From Desulfurococcales archaeon (GTDB taxonomy: Archaea; Thermoproteota; Thermoprotei_A; Sulfolobales; Desulfurococcaceae), in contig JALVYU010000007.1 in assembly GCA_027022365.1 (NCBI GenBank), forward strand, positions 125,007 to 189,006: a stretch of DNA of 64,000 nucleotides, written 5' to 3'. The notes under the pieces are model-generated. The model was not told the origin of the DNA, ran no database searches, and saw nothing but the letters and a program-made list of their open reading frames with translations. How positions within the stretch are numbered: position 1 is the first letter of the stretch; each line of letters starts with the position of its first letter. A program made the position numbers and the translations under genes. Positions 26,828 through 30,854 of the stretch are shown piece after piece.

Positions 26828-26880
26828 ATATTCAGGAGTATTCTTCTAAGTGCTTAGTGCTTAATTAATTAAATGAGGAA

Positions 26881-26928
26881 GGGAGACCGGCCGGTATCCG
26901 CCGCTCTACCAGGCTGAGCTACGGGCCC
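26881..26928 (-). tRNA. split tRNA-Lys(CUU) 5' half (exon 26928-26898, trailer 26897-26881)
   Basis: GGGCCCG TA GCTC AGCCTGGTA GAGC G GCGG gives acceptor 5' strand, D-arm and positions 26-30; followed by ATACCGGCCGGTCTCCC, complementary to the leader of the 3' half. Confidence 0.93.
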
Positions 26929-26961
26929 ATAAGCTCAACCGTATTCTAGTCCCAATTCTGG

Positions 26962-26968
26962 TTATAAA
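26962..26968 (-). promoter_or_regulatory. TATA box of tRNA 5' half
   Basis: TTTATAA on minus strand ~34 nt upstream of mature 5' end. Confidence 0.6.
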
Positions 26969-27040
26969 CGTATCGACCATTGTTTTTAAGGGAGTATTTA
27001 TAAACCATGAGATTGTTTTTAAAAACGGGGGATTTATAAA

Positions 27041-27625
27041 ATGAGCGGGCTAGAAGAGGAGATCTCACTTAATCCTACGACTAAGATAGAGAATATTGTA
27101 GCTACAGTAATACTTGACCAGACTCTCGATCTAAATCTGATCGAGAGTCGTGTCCCTAACGTAACCTATCAGCCAGACCAGTTTCCAGGACTTATACTTA
27201 GACTAGAACGTCCCAAGACAACTGCCCTTATCTTTAAATCAGGCAAAATGGTCGTTACTGGAGCTAAGAGCACAAGCGAGCTCATAGAGGCTGTTAAGAG
27301 AATAATCAAGCTCCTCCGCAAGCATGGGATCAAAATAACATCGAAGCCCAGGATACAGATCCAAAACATCGTGGCGAGCGGGGACATCAACGCGATGGTA
27401 AACCTTGAAAGAGCGGCATATCTCCTCGAGGATAGTATGTATGAGCCGGAGCAGTTCCCCGGTTTAATCCACCGTATGAGGAGCCCCAGGGTAGTGCTCT
27501 TAATATTTAGTAGCGGTAAAATGGTCATAACTGGAGCAAAGGAAGAAAGAGAAGTCGAGGAGGCTGTTAGAAAGATAGCTCAGAAGCTTCTCGAACTAAA
27601 ATGTCTGTTTCCGAGAAGAGGATAA
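27041..27625 (+). CDS. tbp: TATA-box-binding protein
   Basis: two repeats: [25 protein letters not shown] and [28 protein letters not shown]. Confidence 0.98.
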
Positions 27626-27661
27626 CCAGGCTAATAAATCCCTTTACATAAATCCTTTTCT

Positions 27662-27730
27662 TTGAATGATGACGTGGGCAGCCTGAGACCCTCCTACGGG
27701 GGATGAAGACCCTAGTCTCACACTGACAGG
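27662..27730 (+). ncRNA. box C/D guide sRNA
   Basis: C ATGATGA 27666-72, guide CGTGGGCAGC, D' CTGA 27683-86, hairpin, C' ATGAAGA 27703-09, guide CCCTAGTCTCACA, D CTGA 27723-26. Confidence 0.85.
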
Positions 27731-27751
27731 TCCTTCTCGAAGGTGACCTAG

Positions 27752-28186
27752 ATGTTTGTCGAAGGCGTAATCATAGTAGCAGATCTCGATAGATTCGACG
27801 AGTTTGTTGAAAAACATGGACTCAGCCGATATAGACCTAATATTATCACCGGGACACTGACTCATTTATTCTATAACTTCACCAATAGGTGGCGGGGAGT
27901 TGTTGTTTACGGTCTAGATTTTGGAAGGGGTACTGAAGAAATCATAATAGAGATCCCTATGCCTGATGAGTTGGATGGTATTCTTAATGAGCTCAAACGA
28001 ATAAAGAGGACTATTAACGAGCTTGGGGCCTCAATAACTATAGTGGTCGTAAGGGACTATGTGCCATGTAGACCTGCTAGGAATCGTAGGGAAGCGTATT
28101 ATGGGACTCCAGGCAGAAGGAGGGCAATCCGCCTCTTAAAAAGTGTCAAACGTAAAGGAGGAAACACTATTTATATTGAGGTGTAA
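27752..28186 (+). CDS. stand-alone degenerate GGDEF/nucleotidyl-cyclase-like palm domain protein
   Basis: IIVADLDRF, RGTEE at the GGDEF position, C-terminal A..LL..VK.KGGN.I. Confidence 0.55.
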   Translation: MFVEGVIIVADLDRFDEFVEKHGLSRYRPNIITGTLTHLFYNFTNRWRGVVVYGLDFGRGTEEIIIEIPMPDELDGILNELKRIKRTINELGASITIVVVRDYVPCRPARNRREAYYGTPGRRRAIRLLKSVKRKGGNTIYIEV

Positions 28187-28222
28187 GGAAACAATATTAG
28201 TTTTCCATAATTAATGAGTTAC

Positions 28223-28290
28223 GTAGATGATGAGGCCGACATAGTCGGATAAATCCCATAGATTATGAAGAGGGGTCGATTGGCTGAAAA
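28223..28290 (+). ncRNA. box C/D guide sRNA
   Basis: C ATGATGA 28227-33, guide GGCCGACATAGT, D' CGGA, C' ATGAAGA 28265-71, guide GGGGTCGATTGG, D CTGA 28284-87. Confidence 0.85.
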
Positions 28291-28460
28291 TAATTTGTCA
28301 TTCCAAGTTTCAAGTAATAGTCCGTGTACTCTATATAGATCATGAGTATAATGTTTTATATTGCGAGCAAAATATTGAATGGTAGGTATTAATAATGAAT
28401 TAGAATAAATACCGCCTTGGAACAAAGATGTTTAAGTATTTAATATTTATGGTGTAGATT

Positions 28461-29471
28461 TTGTCTGGCGAAGAGCTAGTTGAGATAAAGGTTCATGAAA
28501 GACTTGACGAGTTAAGCAAGAAAATTTCTTCAAGTTCTTTTGAGGCCCACATCACTCTTGAAGGCATATTTCAGGGGATCGAGAGAGTAATTGGTGATAA
28601 GATACCACATGTTTTCAAAATGCTTGCGGAAAGATCAAAGGATACATGTATTTTCGATAGAATAAATCTGAAAAGGAGAACAAGTAGTTGGGACGAAGTT
28701 GTATTACTTCTGTGTAATGGAGTAGTTATCGGTGCACATGGAGAAATTAACGGTCAGAGACTTTATGGCTACAAGCTTTTGGAGCAGCTTTCCTATAACG
28801 TAAATAATAATGTGTATTCTCATATAATCATAGAAGAGACGCTTCTGCCCTCCGAATTTGTGAAGAAATACCTTAATCTCGAAGGCTTTGAAGCAAGGAA
28901 ACAAACGCCCAAACCTGAGGAACGGGGAGCGAAACCAGCCAAGCCCATTGTGAAAGTAGATGCTTATGCTAAAACAACTCAGCTCAATATACCGATAGCG
29001 TCAACTATTCCTGTCGAAACATCGCTTGATAAGACCAAAGTACTTCCTAGAAGACCGATACCGCCTGGTTTCGTGCCTCCTAAGTTTATCGCTATGACGG
29101 ATACACAGAAGCATGAGGCTGAGGAAGAAGATATAGCCGGATCCAAAAAACCGATGACCATTTACTTAGTTATGAGTCTATCCGACAAGGTATTGGATCT
29201 AAGTAATCGCTTGGTAGAGTTGGCCGAGACCGAGGGCATAGGAGTTTCTTATTCTTCATTATCATATAACGGGACAGCTTACATTCTCGAAACAAATGTT
29301 ACAAGAGTTGGATTCATTAGAAAACACGAGAAAATACGTAAGATCGCGGAAAAAATAGCGTCTATCCTTATAGAATGCATGGAGGATTCTCCGCTAAGGT
29401 TTGATCGTGTGATTGTCATCCTTCGTCACGGTTTCGATACTGTTCGTGTTGTGAAAAAAGTATACAGCTAG
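28461..29471 (+). CDS. hypothetical protein, DUF2226-like N-terminal domain, Pro-rich linker
   Basis: VLLLCNGVVIGA resembles DUF2226; low-complexity linker; family tentative. Confidence 0.55.
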   Translation: MSGEELVEIKVHERLDELSKKISSSSFEAHITLEGIFQGIERVIGDKIPHVFKMLAERSKDTCIFDRINLKRRTSSWDEVVLLLCNGVVIGAHGEINGQRLYGYKLLEQLSYNVNNNVYSHIIIEETLLPSEFVKKYLNLEGFEARKQTPKPEERGAKPAKPIVKVDAYAKTTQLNIPIASTIPVETSLDKTKVLPRRPIPPGFVPPKFIAMTDTQKHEAEEEDIAGSKKPMTIYLVMSLSDKVLDLSNRLVELAETEGIGVSYSSLSYNGTAYILETNVTRVGFIRKHEKIRKIAEKIASILIECMEDSPLRFDRVIVILRHGFDTVRVVKKVYS

Positions 29472-29725
29472 ACAAAGTAGTCGCCATGCTTGTATTTCGG
29501 GTATTTGTGGAACTATGAATGCTCATATGGGCTCCTTTATCGTAGGATAATGAAGTATAGTGGAAGAGGAGAGAATATGTGATATATCCAACTCAAGAAA
29601 TACTGGGAAAAACCAAAGGAATTCCGTGGAAGAAAGGCAAAAGGTAAATAGTAATAATAGAGACGGAGCGGCTTCCCAAATGCTACTAGGTTTTCGCAAT
29701 GCCATTAACGTTTAAATAGTCTCAA

Positions 29726-30643
29726 CTATACACCGCATAGTATTAACGCTGTTACTATATCAGAAAAGTCAAGCATTATTACTCTCCTTGTCTCAAAAAT
29801 GTACTCCTTAAGACTAAGAAGATCAGATGAAAGTGATAGAAGAGGCGTTTTTAAGGCCTCCTCTGTGAGTGAGCCTTCATCATTAGATAACCATGCTACC
29901 GGTTTTCCCTGCTCGATTACACAGTACTTCTTAATTATAGGAGATAAGTATTCGGATGCTGAAGGCGTAATAGTAGTTCCTGACTGGTAGGGCCCGATCG
30001 CTGGTACGACTATGACGTAGTTATCTGTTCTGGTTGGGATGAATAAGAATGATGGAAGCTTATATGTACCGAAACATCTCAGGCTCGGATGTTCGTGGCC
30101 GATGATCACAGCATCATATCCAGTTATATCGACGTCTACATGCCCATGTGTTACGAGTATTTTTTCGCTACCTATGTCAATCTCCAATTCTCTTTGGAGC
30201 TCTAGGCCATAATCTCTCAATATCATTCTTAGGAAATTATCGTGATTTCCTCTTATAATCTTTAGATCTTTGATACCTAGGTCATTGAGGATGAATTCTA
30301 GGAGTTCCCTCGTTTCACGCCGCTCTTGACGTAATAGCCTGTCGAAGGCGTGTTTAAGGTCGCCATTTATGATGATTCTTCGAGGCTTAACTAAATTATA
30401 TATGTTCCTTAAACTTTCCTTGATCTTTTTCAGCTGTATCCTCGGAACAATCATTCCTGGAAAATACTTTGCCGCTTTATCGGAATAGTCCAAGCCTCGT
30501 GCAAGGGCTTCTTCAAAGCCTAGATGTAGGTCATTTATGATAATAGCATCGTATTTGCTGATATATAGTGCTGGCTCACCCGGAATTATGTAAATACTCT
30601 CGAACGGTATATTCCTAGGTTTGTAGAGCTTCTCATTCATCAT
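29726..30643 (-). CDS. metallophosphoesterase (COG1407 type)
   Basis: DLHLGFE, NGDLKH, RGNHD, THGH, GHEHP. Confidence 0.9.
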   Translation of the reverse strand: MMNEKLYKPRNIPFESIYIIPGEPALYISKYDAIIINDLHLGFEEALARGLDYSDKAAKYFPGMIVPRIQLKKIKESLRNIYNLVKPRRIIINGDLKHAFDRLLRQERRETRELLEFILNDLGIKDLKIIRGNHDNFLRMILRDYGLELQRELEIDIGSEKILVTHGHVDVDITGYDAVIIGHEHPSLRCFGTYKLPSFLFIPTRTDNYVIVVPAIGPYQSGTTITPSASEYLSPIIKKYCVIEQGKPVAWLSNDEGSLTEEALKTPLLSLSSDLLSLKEYIFETRRVIMLDFSDIVTALILCGV

Positions 30644-30747
30644 TAAATCGGCACCATATATTCATCTAGCAATATATTGCTACATGGTTTGACGCCTAAG
30701 CATTCCCGTAATATCCTCGTGTTCCGTGATAGAAAAGTATGGGCGAG

Positions 30748-30813
30748 CGGGCCCGCCGGGATTTGAACCCGGGACCTACGGGTTAAGAGCCTCGACTACC
30801 GGCCGGTCTCCCC
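30748..30813 (-). tRNA. split tRNA-Lys(CUU) 3' half (leader 30813-30791, exon 30790-30748)
   Basis: leader GGGGAGACCGGCCGGTAGTCGAG, then G CT CTT AA CCCGT AGGTC CCGGG TTCAAAT CCCGG CGGGCCC G; anticodon CTT; no encoded CCA. Confidence 0.93.
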
Positions 30814-30840
30814 AGGCTCTTCTAGGTATCCCTTCTGGAT

Positions 30841-30854
30841 TATTAAATCTTTCC
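30841..30854 (-). promoter_or_regulatory. BRE/TATA of tRNA 3' half
   Basis: GGAAAGA-TTTAATA on minus strand, TATA ~28 nt upstream of leader. Confidence 0.65.

What the first reader, a model, noticed from the sequence alone, without database searches (positions are those of the whole stretch)
26881..30813. Trans-spliced split tRNA-Lys(CUU): halves ~3.8 kb apart, in permuted order, with a canonical BHB at 30/31
Seen: the 5' half (26928-26898) carries trailer A-TACCGGCCGGTCTCCC, and the 3' half (30790-30748) carries leader GGGAGACCGGCCGGTA-GTCG-AG. These form a perfect 16-bp duplex (26881-96 with 30797-812). Pairing gives bulge GG^A, central helix CGGC/GTCG, bulge AG^G and outer helix GAG/CTC. 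This is a canonical bulge-helix-bulge whose two cuts join G30 to G31 and give a complete cloverleaf with anticodon CUU. Both halves are on the minus strand, the 3' half upstream, each with its own TATA box, separated by tbp and three other genes. Known: archaeal EndA cleaves BHB motifs in trans. From memory, a split tRNA-Lys(CUU) was reported in Staphylothermus, so this is probably an orthologous case in a relative rather than a new class. Standard annotation can easily miss it.
Basis: partly seen in the sequence, partly recalled or inferred. Interest (0 to 1): 0.9.

Follow-up and report, generated by a model that had tools for sequence, protein, structure and literature searches.

The report
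Split lysine tRNA gene, trans-spliced
The only gene for one of this archaeon's two lysine tRNAs lies in two pieces 3.8 kb apart, which must pair and be cut and joined as RNA; this is a further case of a kind described in 2011, but it seems much more widespread and older than was reported.

Summary
On the minus strand, 26928-26898 is nt 1-30 of a tRNA and 30790-30748 is nt 31-73. The 5' piece's trailer and the 3' piece's leader form a perfect 16-bp duplex next to a canonical bulge-helix-bulge. Joined at 30/31, ARAGORN reads the pieces as tRNA-Lys(CUU).

The 99.97%-complete genome has no intact Lys(CUU) gene, although AAG is 56% of its lysine codons. It encodes a two-subunit EndA and RtcB.

The locus is orthologous to the published Staphylothermus split tRNA-Lys(CUU) (Chan et al. 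2011): same junction, same piece sizes, same order and strand, same flanking genes. The window's organism is an uncultured sister genus.

The duplex co-varies across genera while both mature pieces stay identical.

Beyond the paper: non-contiguous Lys(CUU) genes occur in 21 of 63 genomes (13 genera) of the family and in 6 of 8 genomes of a second family. Related lineages carry short cis introns at the same 30/31 site.

No RNA data could be obtained, because the run finder did not complete. Splicing is therefore inferred.

Verdict: real and very probably functional, a new member of a known kind.

The parts
26898..26928 (-). 5' half of tRNA-Lys(CUU): nt 1-30 (31 letters, one extra D-loop nt): acceptor 5' strand, D arm, 5' strand of the anticodon stem up to G30
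   Evidence: 100% identical in 5 of 5 genomes of the genus. Same 31 letters in all split relatives printed.
26881..26897 (-). Trailer of the 5' half: A26897 is the third nt of the 5' bulge (GG^A); 26896-26881 is one arm of the 16-bp duplex
   Evidence: 100% identical within the genus, while the next 23 nt are 47.8% identical.
26962..26968 (-). TTTATAA box, 33 nt before the mature 5' end: putative archaeal promoter of the 5' half
   Evidence: Read by eye. Kept in 5 of 5 genomes of the genus; AT-rich boxes at like distance in other genera. No transcript data.
26863..26880 (-). T-rich tract after the trailer: putative end of the 5'-half transcript
   Evidence: by eye; inferred.
30797..30812 (-). 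Leader arm of the 16-bp duplex (extends to 30813 with a G.U pair)
30791..30796 (-). Leader GUCG (30796-30793), which pairs with C25-C28 as the 4-bp central helix, then AG (30792-30791), the first two nt of the 3' bulge (AG^G31)
   Evidence: G[CT][CT]G plus two nt is kept before the 3' half in 78 of 325 genomes of the order.
30748..30790 (-). 3' half of tRNA-Lys(CUU): nt 31-73, with anticodon CUU, variable loop, T arm, acceptor 3' strand and discriminator G; no encoded CCA
   Evidence: Weak Rfam tRNA match, 21.4 bits against a cut-off of 29. The 43 letters are identical in every relative printed.
30840..30847 (-). TTTAATAA box, 26 nt before the leader's first G: putative promoter of the 3' half, just after the stop of the radical-SAM ORF
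   Evidence: The motif AGATTTAATAATCC stands at the same spacing in G035; G023 has the same box with one C fewer.
30733..30736 (-). TTTT tract 11 nt after the discriminator: putative terminator of the 3'-half transcript
   Evidence: by eye; inferred.
27041..27625 (+). tbp (TATA-binding protein), divergent from the 5' half; first of four intervening genes
   Evidence: PF00352, 6.8e-64.
27752..28186 (+). 144-aa ORF, no Pfam family, conserved beside tbp in relatives
28461..29471 (+). 336-aa ORF, no Pfam family, conserved in relatives
29726..30643 (-). 305-aa calcineurin-like metallophosphoesterase, directly downstream of the 3' half on the same strand. This linkage is kept in split, intron-bearing and intact relatives.

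Best explanation
This is a functional, trans-spliced split gene for tRNA-Lys(CUU).

Proposed course (steps 1 and 3-6 inferred; for step 2 only the complementarity is shown):
1. Two short RNAs are made from their own promoters: a pre-5' half of about 48 nt and a pre-3' half of about 65 nt.
2. They anneal through the 16-17-bp trailer/leader duplex and the 7-bp acceptor stem.
3. Next to the duplex the RNA adopts an hBHBh' motif: two 3-nt bulges around a 4-bp helix.
4. The two-subunit splicing endonuclease EndA cuts after G30 and before G31.
5. RtcB joins G30 to G31.
6. RNase P, RNase Z and the CCA-adding enzyme finish the ends.

The product is the cell's only tRNA with anticodon CUU.

The locus is the orthologue of the Staphylothermus split tRNA-Lys(CUU). 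The 3' half still sits at the ancestral tRNA site upstream of the metallophosphoesterase gene. The 5' half has moved about 4 kb to the spacer between DUF2070 and tbp.

Shown: the sequence anatomy, the absence of an intact gene, the conservation, the covariation, the synteny and the enzyme genes. Inferred: transcription starts and ends, annealing, cleavage, ligation and use in translation.
For: (1) Anatomy. Both pieces, the 16-bp duplex and an all-standard-pair BHB are present. The join is a cloverleaf tRNA-Lys(ctt) for ARAGORN. It differs from the genome's intact tRNA-Lys(UUU) at 2 positions only.

(2) Need. No intact Lys(CUU) gene was found.
- ARAGORN on the whole genome found only Lys(ttt).
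- Rfam tRNA gave 45 hits over the cut-off and none reads CUU; I read the anticodons by eye.
- A scan for a CUU anticodon stem-loop plus T loop gave 1 hit, which is not tRNA-like.
- The genome is 99.97% complete.
- AAG makes up 12272 of 21733 Lys codons in long ORFs.
- None of the 6 genomes of the genus has the intact pattern.

(3) Selection. Within the genus the mature 31 and 43 nt and the trailer are 100% identical, and the leader 97.3%. The flanks are 48-75% identical.

(4) Covariation.
- Trailer and leader are complementary in every genome where both were found, although the sequences differ.
- The cognate trailer/leader pair is the most stable in 12 of 15 genomes; the 3 exceptions are close kin.
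- In a fixed register, 16 of 17 duplex columns show changes on both sides that keep pairing. This covers 13 of the 18 genomes examined; 5 were dropped for indels.
- Against Staphylothermus there are 3 compensatory pairs.

(5) Orthology. Same junction, piece sizes, order and strand as in PMC3218864 Table 1, and the same neighbours: DUF2070> <5' half tbp> orf144 ... orf336 ... <MPE <3' half <rSAM. The same promoter box stands before the 3' half.

(6) Machinery. One EndA ORF passes TIGR00324 (111.1 bits against a cut-off of 59.6). A second, divergent EndA-like ORF is present, as is RtcB (605 bits).
Against: - There is no RNA evidence of any kind. The run finder did not complete (9 tries), so no transcripts, ends or junction reads were seen.
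- The BHB conformation is not the unconstrained minimum-energy fold: -66.4 against -78.7 kcal/mol at 37 C, and -26.6 against -30.5 at 80 C.
- Promoter and terminator calls are by-eye matches to AT-rich or T-rich motifs. The only scanning tool covers bacterial promoters and is uninformative here.
- tRNA-Lys(UUU) might read AAG by wobble, so the CUU species need not be essential.
- The assembly has 44 contigs and 80 N, so a gene in a gap cannot be strictly excluded.
Confidence: 0.9

Rival explanations
1. The two pieces are dead relics of a broken, once intron-containing tRNA-Lys(CUU) gene. AAG is now read by tRNA-Lys(UUU) alone.
For: No RNA evidence for splicing was obtained. An intact tRNA-Lys(UUU) with a nearly identical body exists. 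U34 tRNAs can often read G-ending codons (general knowledge).
Against: Both pieces and the trailer are 100% identical in 5 genomes of the genus, while adjacent DNA is 48-75% identical. The 43-nt 3' half is identical in every relative printed, across three families. The duplex is kept by compensatory changes. The arrangement persists in at least 10 genera.
Confidence: 0.05
2. One long permuted precursor is made from the 3'-half promoter through to the 5' half. It is processed in cis, as in the permuted tRNAs of Thermofilum pendens and red algae.
For: Both pieces lie on one strand with the 3' piece upstream. That is the permuted order.
Against: The precursor would be 3.9 kb long and antisense to three genes including tbp. 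T tracts follow each piece, and a conserved TATA-like box precedes the 5' piece. In relatives the same halves lie 15.6-15.8 kb apart, on different contigs or on opposite strands. Known permuted tRNAs join at 59/60, with the two parts about 20 to 50 nt apart (PMC3218864, Table 1).
Confidence: 0.03
3. The pieces are partial tRNA duplicates left at the borders of an integrated element (att-site remnants).
For: The same genome does hold such tRNA fragments on contig C26: a 3' part of Val(CAC), a 5' part of Ala(GGC) and a 3' part of Val(GAC).
Against: The two pieces do not overlap and complement each other exactly at 30/31. They carry a 16-bp complementary extension and a BHB, which att remnants do not need. 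No intact copy exists. The DNA between them holds tbp and conserved genes that lie in the same order in relatives with an intact tRNA. None of the four Pfam scans gave an integrase family.
Confidence: 0.02

Closest known systems
Split tRNA-Lys(CUU) of Staphylothermus marinus and S. hellenicus (Chan, Cozen, Lowe 2011, PMC3218864)
   Same: Ligation site 30/31. Pre/mature sizes ~48/31 and ~65/43. hBHBh' next to a perfect trans duplex. Both halves on one strand with the 3' half upstream. Own promoters. One split tRNA-Lys per genome. The mature halves are identical. The flanking genes and the box before the 3' half are the same.
   Different: Other genus: DNA ligase is 85% identical and G+C is 45%. 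The duplex has 16-17 pairs against 13. The central helix has one G.U (GUCG against GCCG). The halves are 3.87 kb apart against 4.78 kb. Four ORFs lie between them, against the five genes the paper names. Three duplex pairs changed on both sides.
Split tRNA-Lys(CUU) of Nanoarchaeum equitans (Randau et al. 2005, as cited and tabulated in PMC3218864)
   Same: Same isoacceptor, same 30/31 junction, BHB plus complementary leader.
   Different: Distant phylum. By the paper's Table 1 the halves are about 71 kb apart on opposite strands. It is one of several split tRNAs in that genome. I did not examine its sequence here.
Adjacent split tRNA-Asp(GUC) of Aeropyrum pernix and Thermosphaera aggregans (PMC3218864)
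   Same: Trans-spliced halves with own promoters in Desulfurococcales. This resembles the adjacent Lys(CUU) forms found here in G008, G022 and G056.
   Different: Junction at 37/38, another tRNA, and halves about 160 nt apart.
Cis BHB intron at 30/31 of tRNA-Lys(CUU) in related families (found here)
   Same: Same insertion point. Same G[CT][CT]G + 2 nt end of the intron as in the window's leader. Identical exons.
   Different: One gene, with an intron of about 13-35 nt, removed in cis.
Permuted tRNA genes of Thermofilum pendens and Cyanidioschyzon merolae (PMC3218864)
   Same: The 3' part is encoded upstream of the 5' part on one strand.
   Different: These make a single short transcript, join at 59/60 and have the parts nearly abutting.

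Membership tests
Trans-spliced (split) archaeal tRNA | Two separately encoded pieces that together give one complete cloverleaf tRNA | tested here: met
   31 + 43 nt. ARAGORN reads the join as a 74-nt tRNA-Lys(ctt). Neither piece is called alone.
Trans-spliced (split) archaeal tRNA | Complementary trailer and leader that bring the halves together | tested here: met
   Perfect 16 bp, kept by covariation across genera.
Trans-spliced (split) archaeal tRNA | Bulge-helix-bulge (3-nt bulge, 4-bp helix, 3-nt bulge) whose cuts give the mature junction | tested here: met
   All pairs are standard and both cuts fall between the 2nd and 3rd bulge nt. It is not the unconstrained minimum-energy fold. The position of cleavage within the bulge is recalled knowledge.
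Trans-spliced (split) archaeal tRNA | Separate promoter for each half | tested here: inconclusive
   Conserved TATA-like boxes stand 33 nt before the 5' half and 26 nt before the leader. No transcript starts were seen.
Trans-spliced (split) archaeal tRNA | No contiguous gene for the same isoacceptor in the genome | tested here: met
   genome 99.97% complete.
Trans-spliced (split) archaeal tRNA | Broad-specificity splicing endonuclease (two-subunit type) and RNA ligase in the genome | tested here: met
   The 174-aa ORF passes TIGR00324 endA. The second, 178-aa EndA-like ORF matches 'subunit beta' models only below their cut-offs. RtcB scores 605 bits. Activity was not tested.
Trans-spliced (split) archaeal tRNA | Mature spliced RNA detected | not testable with these tools
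   The look-up of sequencing runs did not complete.
Orthologue of the Staphylothermus split tRNA-Lys(CUU) | Same junction, piece sizes, order and strand | tested here: met
   against Table 1 of PMC3218864.
Orthologue of the Staphylothermus split tRNA-Lys(CUU) | Shared flanking genes | tested here: met
   DUF2070, tbp, orf144, orf336, metallophosphoesterase and radical SAM lie in the same relative places in G035, G023 and the window. The paper's own synteny figure is a supplement that I could not see.
Permuted tRNA (single transcript, circular intermediate) | Both parts within one short transcript, 3' part directly upstream of the 5' part | tested here: not met
   3.8 kb and four ORFs lie between the parts.

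The most novel reading that the evidence does not exclude
The permuted split of tRNA-Lys(CUU) is not a recent accident of Staphylothermus. It is an old, stably inherited state of a whole clade of at least 10 genera.

It would be the last step of a series that can still be seen in living relatives:
1. A short BHB intron at 30/31, in three to five families.
2. Halves 150-400 nt apart, each with its own promoter.
3. Halves moved kilobases apart or onto opposite strands. This arose at least twice, in this family and in a second one.

The same genome carries, at the same 30/31 site of its only tRNA-Phe, a 666-nt BHB insert with a LAGLIDADG homing-endonuclease gene. That gene is uninterrupted in a congener. 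Endonuclease-bearing mobile introns that home to 30/31 may therefore be the agent that seeds and breaks these genes.
Probability: 0.45. Interest if true: 0.6.

Novelty: new member of a known kind. Interest (0 to 1): 0.4.

Why it matters
Standard annotation misses this gene. ARAGORN and Rfam at its gathering score call nothing in the window. The genome would therefore appear to lack a tRNA for its commonest lysine codon.

For the field, the locus itself adds one more genus to a known case. The comparison around it bears on an open debate: are split tRNAs ancient, recent, or made by mobile elements?
- The published view of the Desulfurococcales cases is 'recently split'.
- Here the same arrangement, with the same neighbours, is kept in at least 10 genera.
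- Intron-bearing, adjacent and dispersed forms of the same gene coexist in related lineages.

This gives a testable order of events. It also gives a set of natural substrates, with duplexes of different length and sequence, for EndA.

Tried and rejected
- RNA evidence. The look-up of sequencing runs was asked nine times with the same request and never answered. Nothing can be said about expression.
- The bacterial promoter/terminator scan found promoter-like sites at the shuffle rate (10 against 10.1). It does not cover archaeal promoters, so I set it aside.
- Homing-endonuclease remnants between the Lys halves. tblastn of the two endonuclease parts against all loci held at the time and the own genome found none in the Lys loci. 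A direct link between the endonuclease and the Lys split is therefore not shown.
- G018. The '5' half' hit on contig C10 is another tRNA with a cis intron at 30/31, not the partner of its split 3' half; its duplex energy is only -15.9. I dropped it from the pairing counts.
- Five genomes (G006, G019, G026, G020, G046) were dropped from the fixed-register pair table because indels shift their register. Their duplexes are shown by RNAduplex.
- In the third family (f3), five genomes (G214-G218) have the leader-type motif but not the 10-40-nt intron pattern, and three (G226, G230, G231) the reverse. I left them unresolved.
I took them as the same records and did not count them twice.
- An exact rearrangement path (duplication and reciprocal loss, or block transposition) was considered and left open.
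- Literature. Searches found no paper in the held library that reports a split Lys(CUU) outside Staphylothermus and N. equitans. The search returned no title on an endonuclease-bearing tRNA intron in archaea among the 12 of 20 listed. Subscription journals, GtRNAdb and supplements were not searchable.

Full report
**What is there**

Read on the minus strand, window 26928-26898 is a 31-letter stretch. It holds an acceptor 5' strand, a D arm and the first four letters of an anticodon stem. A 17-nt trailer follows.

Window 30812-30791 is a 22-nt leader. It is followed by 30790-30748, 43 letters that hold G31, an anticodon loop with CUU, a variable loop, a T arm, the acceptor 3' strand and discriminator G.

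BLAST of these pieces against the whole genome gives the 16/16 reverse-complement match between trailer and leader. No other match of that length was found for the trailer. [quoted passage not shown]

The structure drawn by the finder has these parts:
- outer helix A21-G24 with C32-U35;
- bulge AG^G31;
- central helix C25-C28 with leader GUCG;
- bulge G29 G30^A;
- the long duplex.

It contains only standard pairs and has -66.4 kcal/mol at 37 C. It is not the unconstrained optimum of -78.7, which draws the centre in another register. That is a caveat, but it is not unusual for motifs that a protein recognises.

The join made by script is a canonical 74-nt tRNA-Lys(ctt) for ARAGORN. ARAGORN and Rfam at gathering score call nothing in the whole window. 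With a loose threshold, Rfam's tRNA model touches the 3' piece at 21.4 bits, below its cut-off of 29.

**Is it needed?**

The window is part of a 1,742,253-base assembly: 44 contigs, 45.3% G+C, 80 N, rated 99.97% complete.

- Rfam's tRNA model gives 45 matches over the cut-off. Reading their anticodons by eye gives 44 whole genes and one fragment, and none has CUU.
- Together with a tRNA-Phe found only by ARAGORN, and the split gene, the set comes to the usual 46 archaeal anticodons.
- A direct scan for a CUU anticodon stem-loop followed by a T-loop motif found one place, which is not tRNA-like.
- The intact tRNA-Lys(UUU) differs from the joined product at two positions only: one D-loop letter and position 34. 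Chan et al. noted the same for S. marinus.
- AAG makes up 56.5% of lysine codons in ORFs of 300 codons or more (12272 AAG, 9461 AAA).

**Machinery**

The genome has one ORF that passes NCBIfam's endA model (111.1 bits, cut-off 59.6). A second, divergent EndA-like ORF matches the other half of fused endonucleases and, below their cut-offs, the 'subunit beta' models.

This fits the two-subunit type. According to abstracts listed (PMC5829648), that is one of the two types able to cut non-canonical sites. RtcB is present at 605 bits.

**Relation to the known case**

[quoted passage not shown] I read the abstract, section 6, Table 1 and passages. Their description:
- ligation site 30/31;
- pre/mature sizes ~48/31 and ~65/43;
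- a canonical hBHBh' followed by a perfect 13-nt trans pairing;
- halves about 4.5 kb apart by their text (4.78 kb by Table 1), each with a promoter;
- by Table 1, both halves on one strand with the 3' half upstream.

The sizes, junction, order and strand are the same here.

In a search of 60 relatives, two genomes of the same family (G035, G023) hold the halves at exactly the coordinates of that table. I take them to be those two species.

They share with the window the gene order DUF2070> <5' half tbp> orf144 ... orf336 ... <metallophosphoesterase <3' half <radical SAM. They also share a TTTAATAA box 26 nt before the leader.

The window's own genus (six genomes, G000-G005) is a different one. 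Its DNA ligase is 85% identical to that of G035 and G023. The nearest named public record is an uncultured Desulfurococcales MAG.

**Evidence that the arrangement is under selection**

Within the genus:
- the mature 31 and 43 nt and the 17-nt trailer are 100% identical;
- the leader is 97.3% identical, its one change turning G-C into G.U;
- the 23 nt after the trailer are 47.8% identical and the 25 nt after the 3' end 75.2%.

Across genera:
- the 3' half is identical in every relative printed;
- leaders and trailers differ, yet remain complementary in each genome where both were found;
- trailers folded against the leaders of 15 genomes give the own leader as the best partner in 12. The three exceptions (G003, G023, L071) are beaten only by close kin;
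- in a fixed register counted from the cut sites, 13 of 18 genomes stay in register, and 16 of 17 duplex columns show changes on both sides that keep pairing;
- three such pairs separate the window from Staphylothermus.

The four leader letters that form the central helix are always G[CT][CT]G. These can pair with the invariant CGGC of nt 25-28.

**How widespread**

A pattern of that leader end plus the start of the 3' half matches 78 of 325 genomes of the order:

| Family | Genomes with the motif |
|---|---|
| f1 (own family) | 24 of 62, plus G000 |
| f3 | 45 of 52 |
| f11 | 6 of 8 |
| f4 | 1 of 1 |
| f13 | 1 of 47 |

The reversed control pattern matched none.

A pattern for a contiguous gene with 10-40 nt inserted at 30/31 matches 50 of 325. 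These are 43 in f3, 4 in f1, one each in f4, f8 and f13, and none in f11.

Hence 21 of 63 genomes of the family, in 13 genera, and 6 of 8 genomes of the second family have a 3' half with a BHB leader and no 5' half within 40 nt.

Where both halves could be placed:
- 11 genomes have the window's permuted same-strand order, 3.6 to 15.8 kb apart.
- Three (G006, G007, G024) have the halves on different contigs.
- G008, G022 and G056 have them in normal order, with about 300, 400 and 156 nt between the halves, and an AT-rich box before the leader.
- G046 and L071 have them on opposite strands, about 88 kb and 9.2 kb apart.

The intact gene occurs in 31 of 63 genomes of the family, and in none that has the leader motif. 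Seven genomes have neither.

The 2014 review I read in passages (PMC4033280) lists split tRNAs only for N. equitans, A. pernix, S. marinus, T. aggregans and C. maquilingensis. My searches of the held library found no wider report.

**Order of events (inference)**

I built a quick single-gene tree of DNA ligase: 40 rows, LG+G4, SH-aLRT support only.
- The 14 rows with dispersed halves form one clade in the best tree, with weak support (63).
- That clade lies inside a group with support 93, which also holds the clade of intact-gene genera (support 99).
- Intron-bearing and adjacent forms branch outside that group. The outgroup families carry the intron or their own split forms.

In three relatives with an intact gene, the order is ligase> orf260> DUF2070> tbp> orf144 ... 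<metallophosphoesterase <tRNA. So the window's 3' half sits at the old tRNA site, and only the 5' half with its promoter has moved.

This fits an ancestor with a 30/31 intron, loss of the intron in one clade, and relocation of the 5' exon in the other. Duplication followed by reciprocal loss would explain the relocation, but I could not test that. The tree is too weak to exclude repeated events.

**Rivals**

Three rival readings were considered: relics of a dead gene, a single long permuted precursor, and att-site remnants. Each conflicts with the conservation, the covariation, the distances and strands seen in relatives, or the content of the interval. Together they get about 0.1.

**What is missing**

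There are no RNA data. Transcription, annealing, cleavage, ligation and use in translation are inferred. The inference rests on the anatomy and on the mechanism established for other split tRNAs (PMC3218864, PMC4033280).

**Verdict**

The locus is a new member, in an uncultured sister genus, of the known split tRNA-Lys(CUU) of Staphylothermus.

The added value lies in the breadth and apparent age of the arrangement, and in the graded series of forms among relatives.

Noticed in passing
Own genome, contig C26:324429-325169 (-), outside the window; locus L160: The only tRNA-Phe(GAA) found is interrupted at the same 30/31 site by a 666-nt insert. The insert has 15-bp complementary ends and the same BHB geometry (leader ends GGCG-AA). 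It encodes a LAGLIDADG homing endonuclease (Pfam LAGLIDADG_2 3.2e-8; LAGLIDADG_3 7.2e-5), which is broken here by one in-frame TGA. The same insert in tRNA-Phe has an uninterrupted 202-aa ORF in congener G005 and a 186-aa ORF in G025 of another genus. It is shorter or decayed in G003 and G002. I found no title on an endonuclease-bearing tRNA intron in archaea among the 12 of 20 papers listed.
   Followed up: partly
Own genome, C26:622700-622769, C26:526264-526336, C26:538335-538414: Partial tRNA copies are present: a 3' part of Val(CAC), a 5' part of Ala(GGC) and a 3' part of Val(GAC). They lie next to unrelated sequence, as is left at the borders of integrated elements.
   Followed up: no
Own genome, contig C1:4385-4456 (a 5354-base contig): A tRNA-Met(CAT) has a body unlike the other tRNAs of this genome (lower G+C, different acceptor stem). 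It may be a foreign or contaminant contig. If so, one of the three expected CAT tRNAs is unaccounted for.
   Followed up: no
G046:C1 about 272.9 kb (-) and 360.8 kb (+); L071 1431-1473 (-) and 10629-10659 (+): In a second family (f11; L071 is titled a Fervidicoccaceae MAG) the Lys(CUU) halves lie on opposite strands, 88 kb and 9.2 kb apart, with their own complementary leader and trailer. In G056 of the same family, 156 nt lie between the halves, in normal order. This looks like an independent series from adjacent to dispersed.
   Followed up: partly
Own genome, C26:388867-392081: RtcB and the second (beta-like) EndA ORF lie within about 1.7 kb of each other.
   Followed up: no
L141 (G018:C10), near locus position 502: A further tRNA with the Lys-type 5' exon carries a cis intron of about 36 nt at 30/31. 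It occurs in a genome that also has the split-type 3' half of Lys(CUU). Its anticodon was not read.
   Followed up: no
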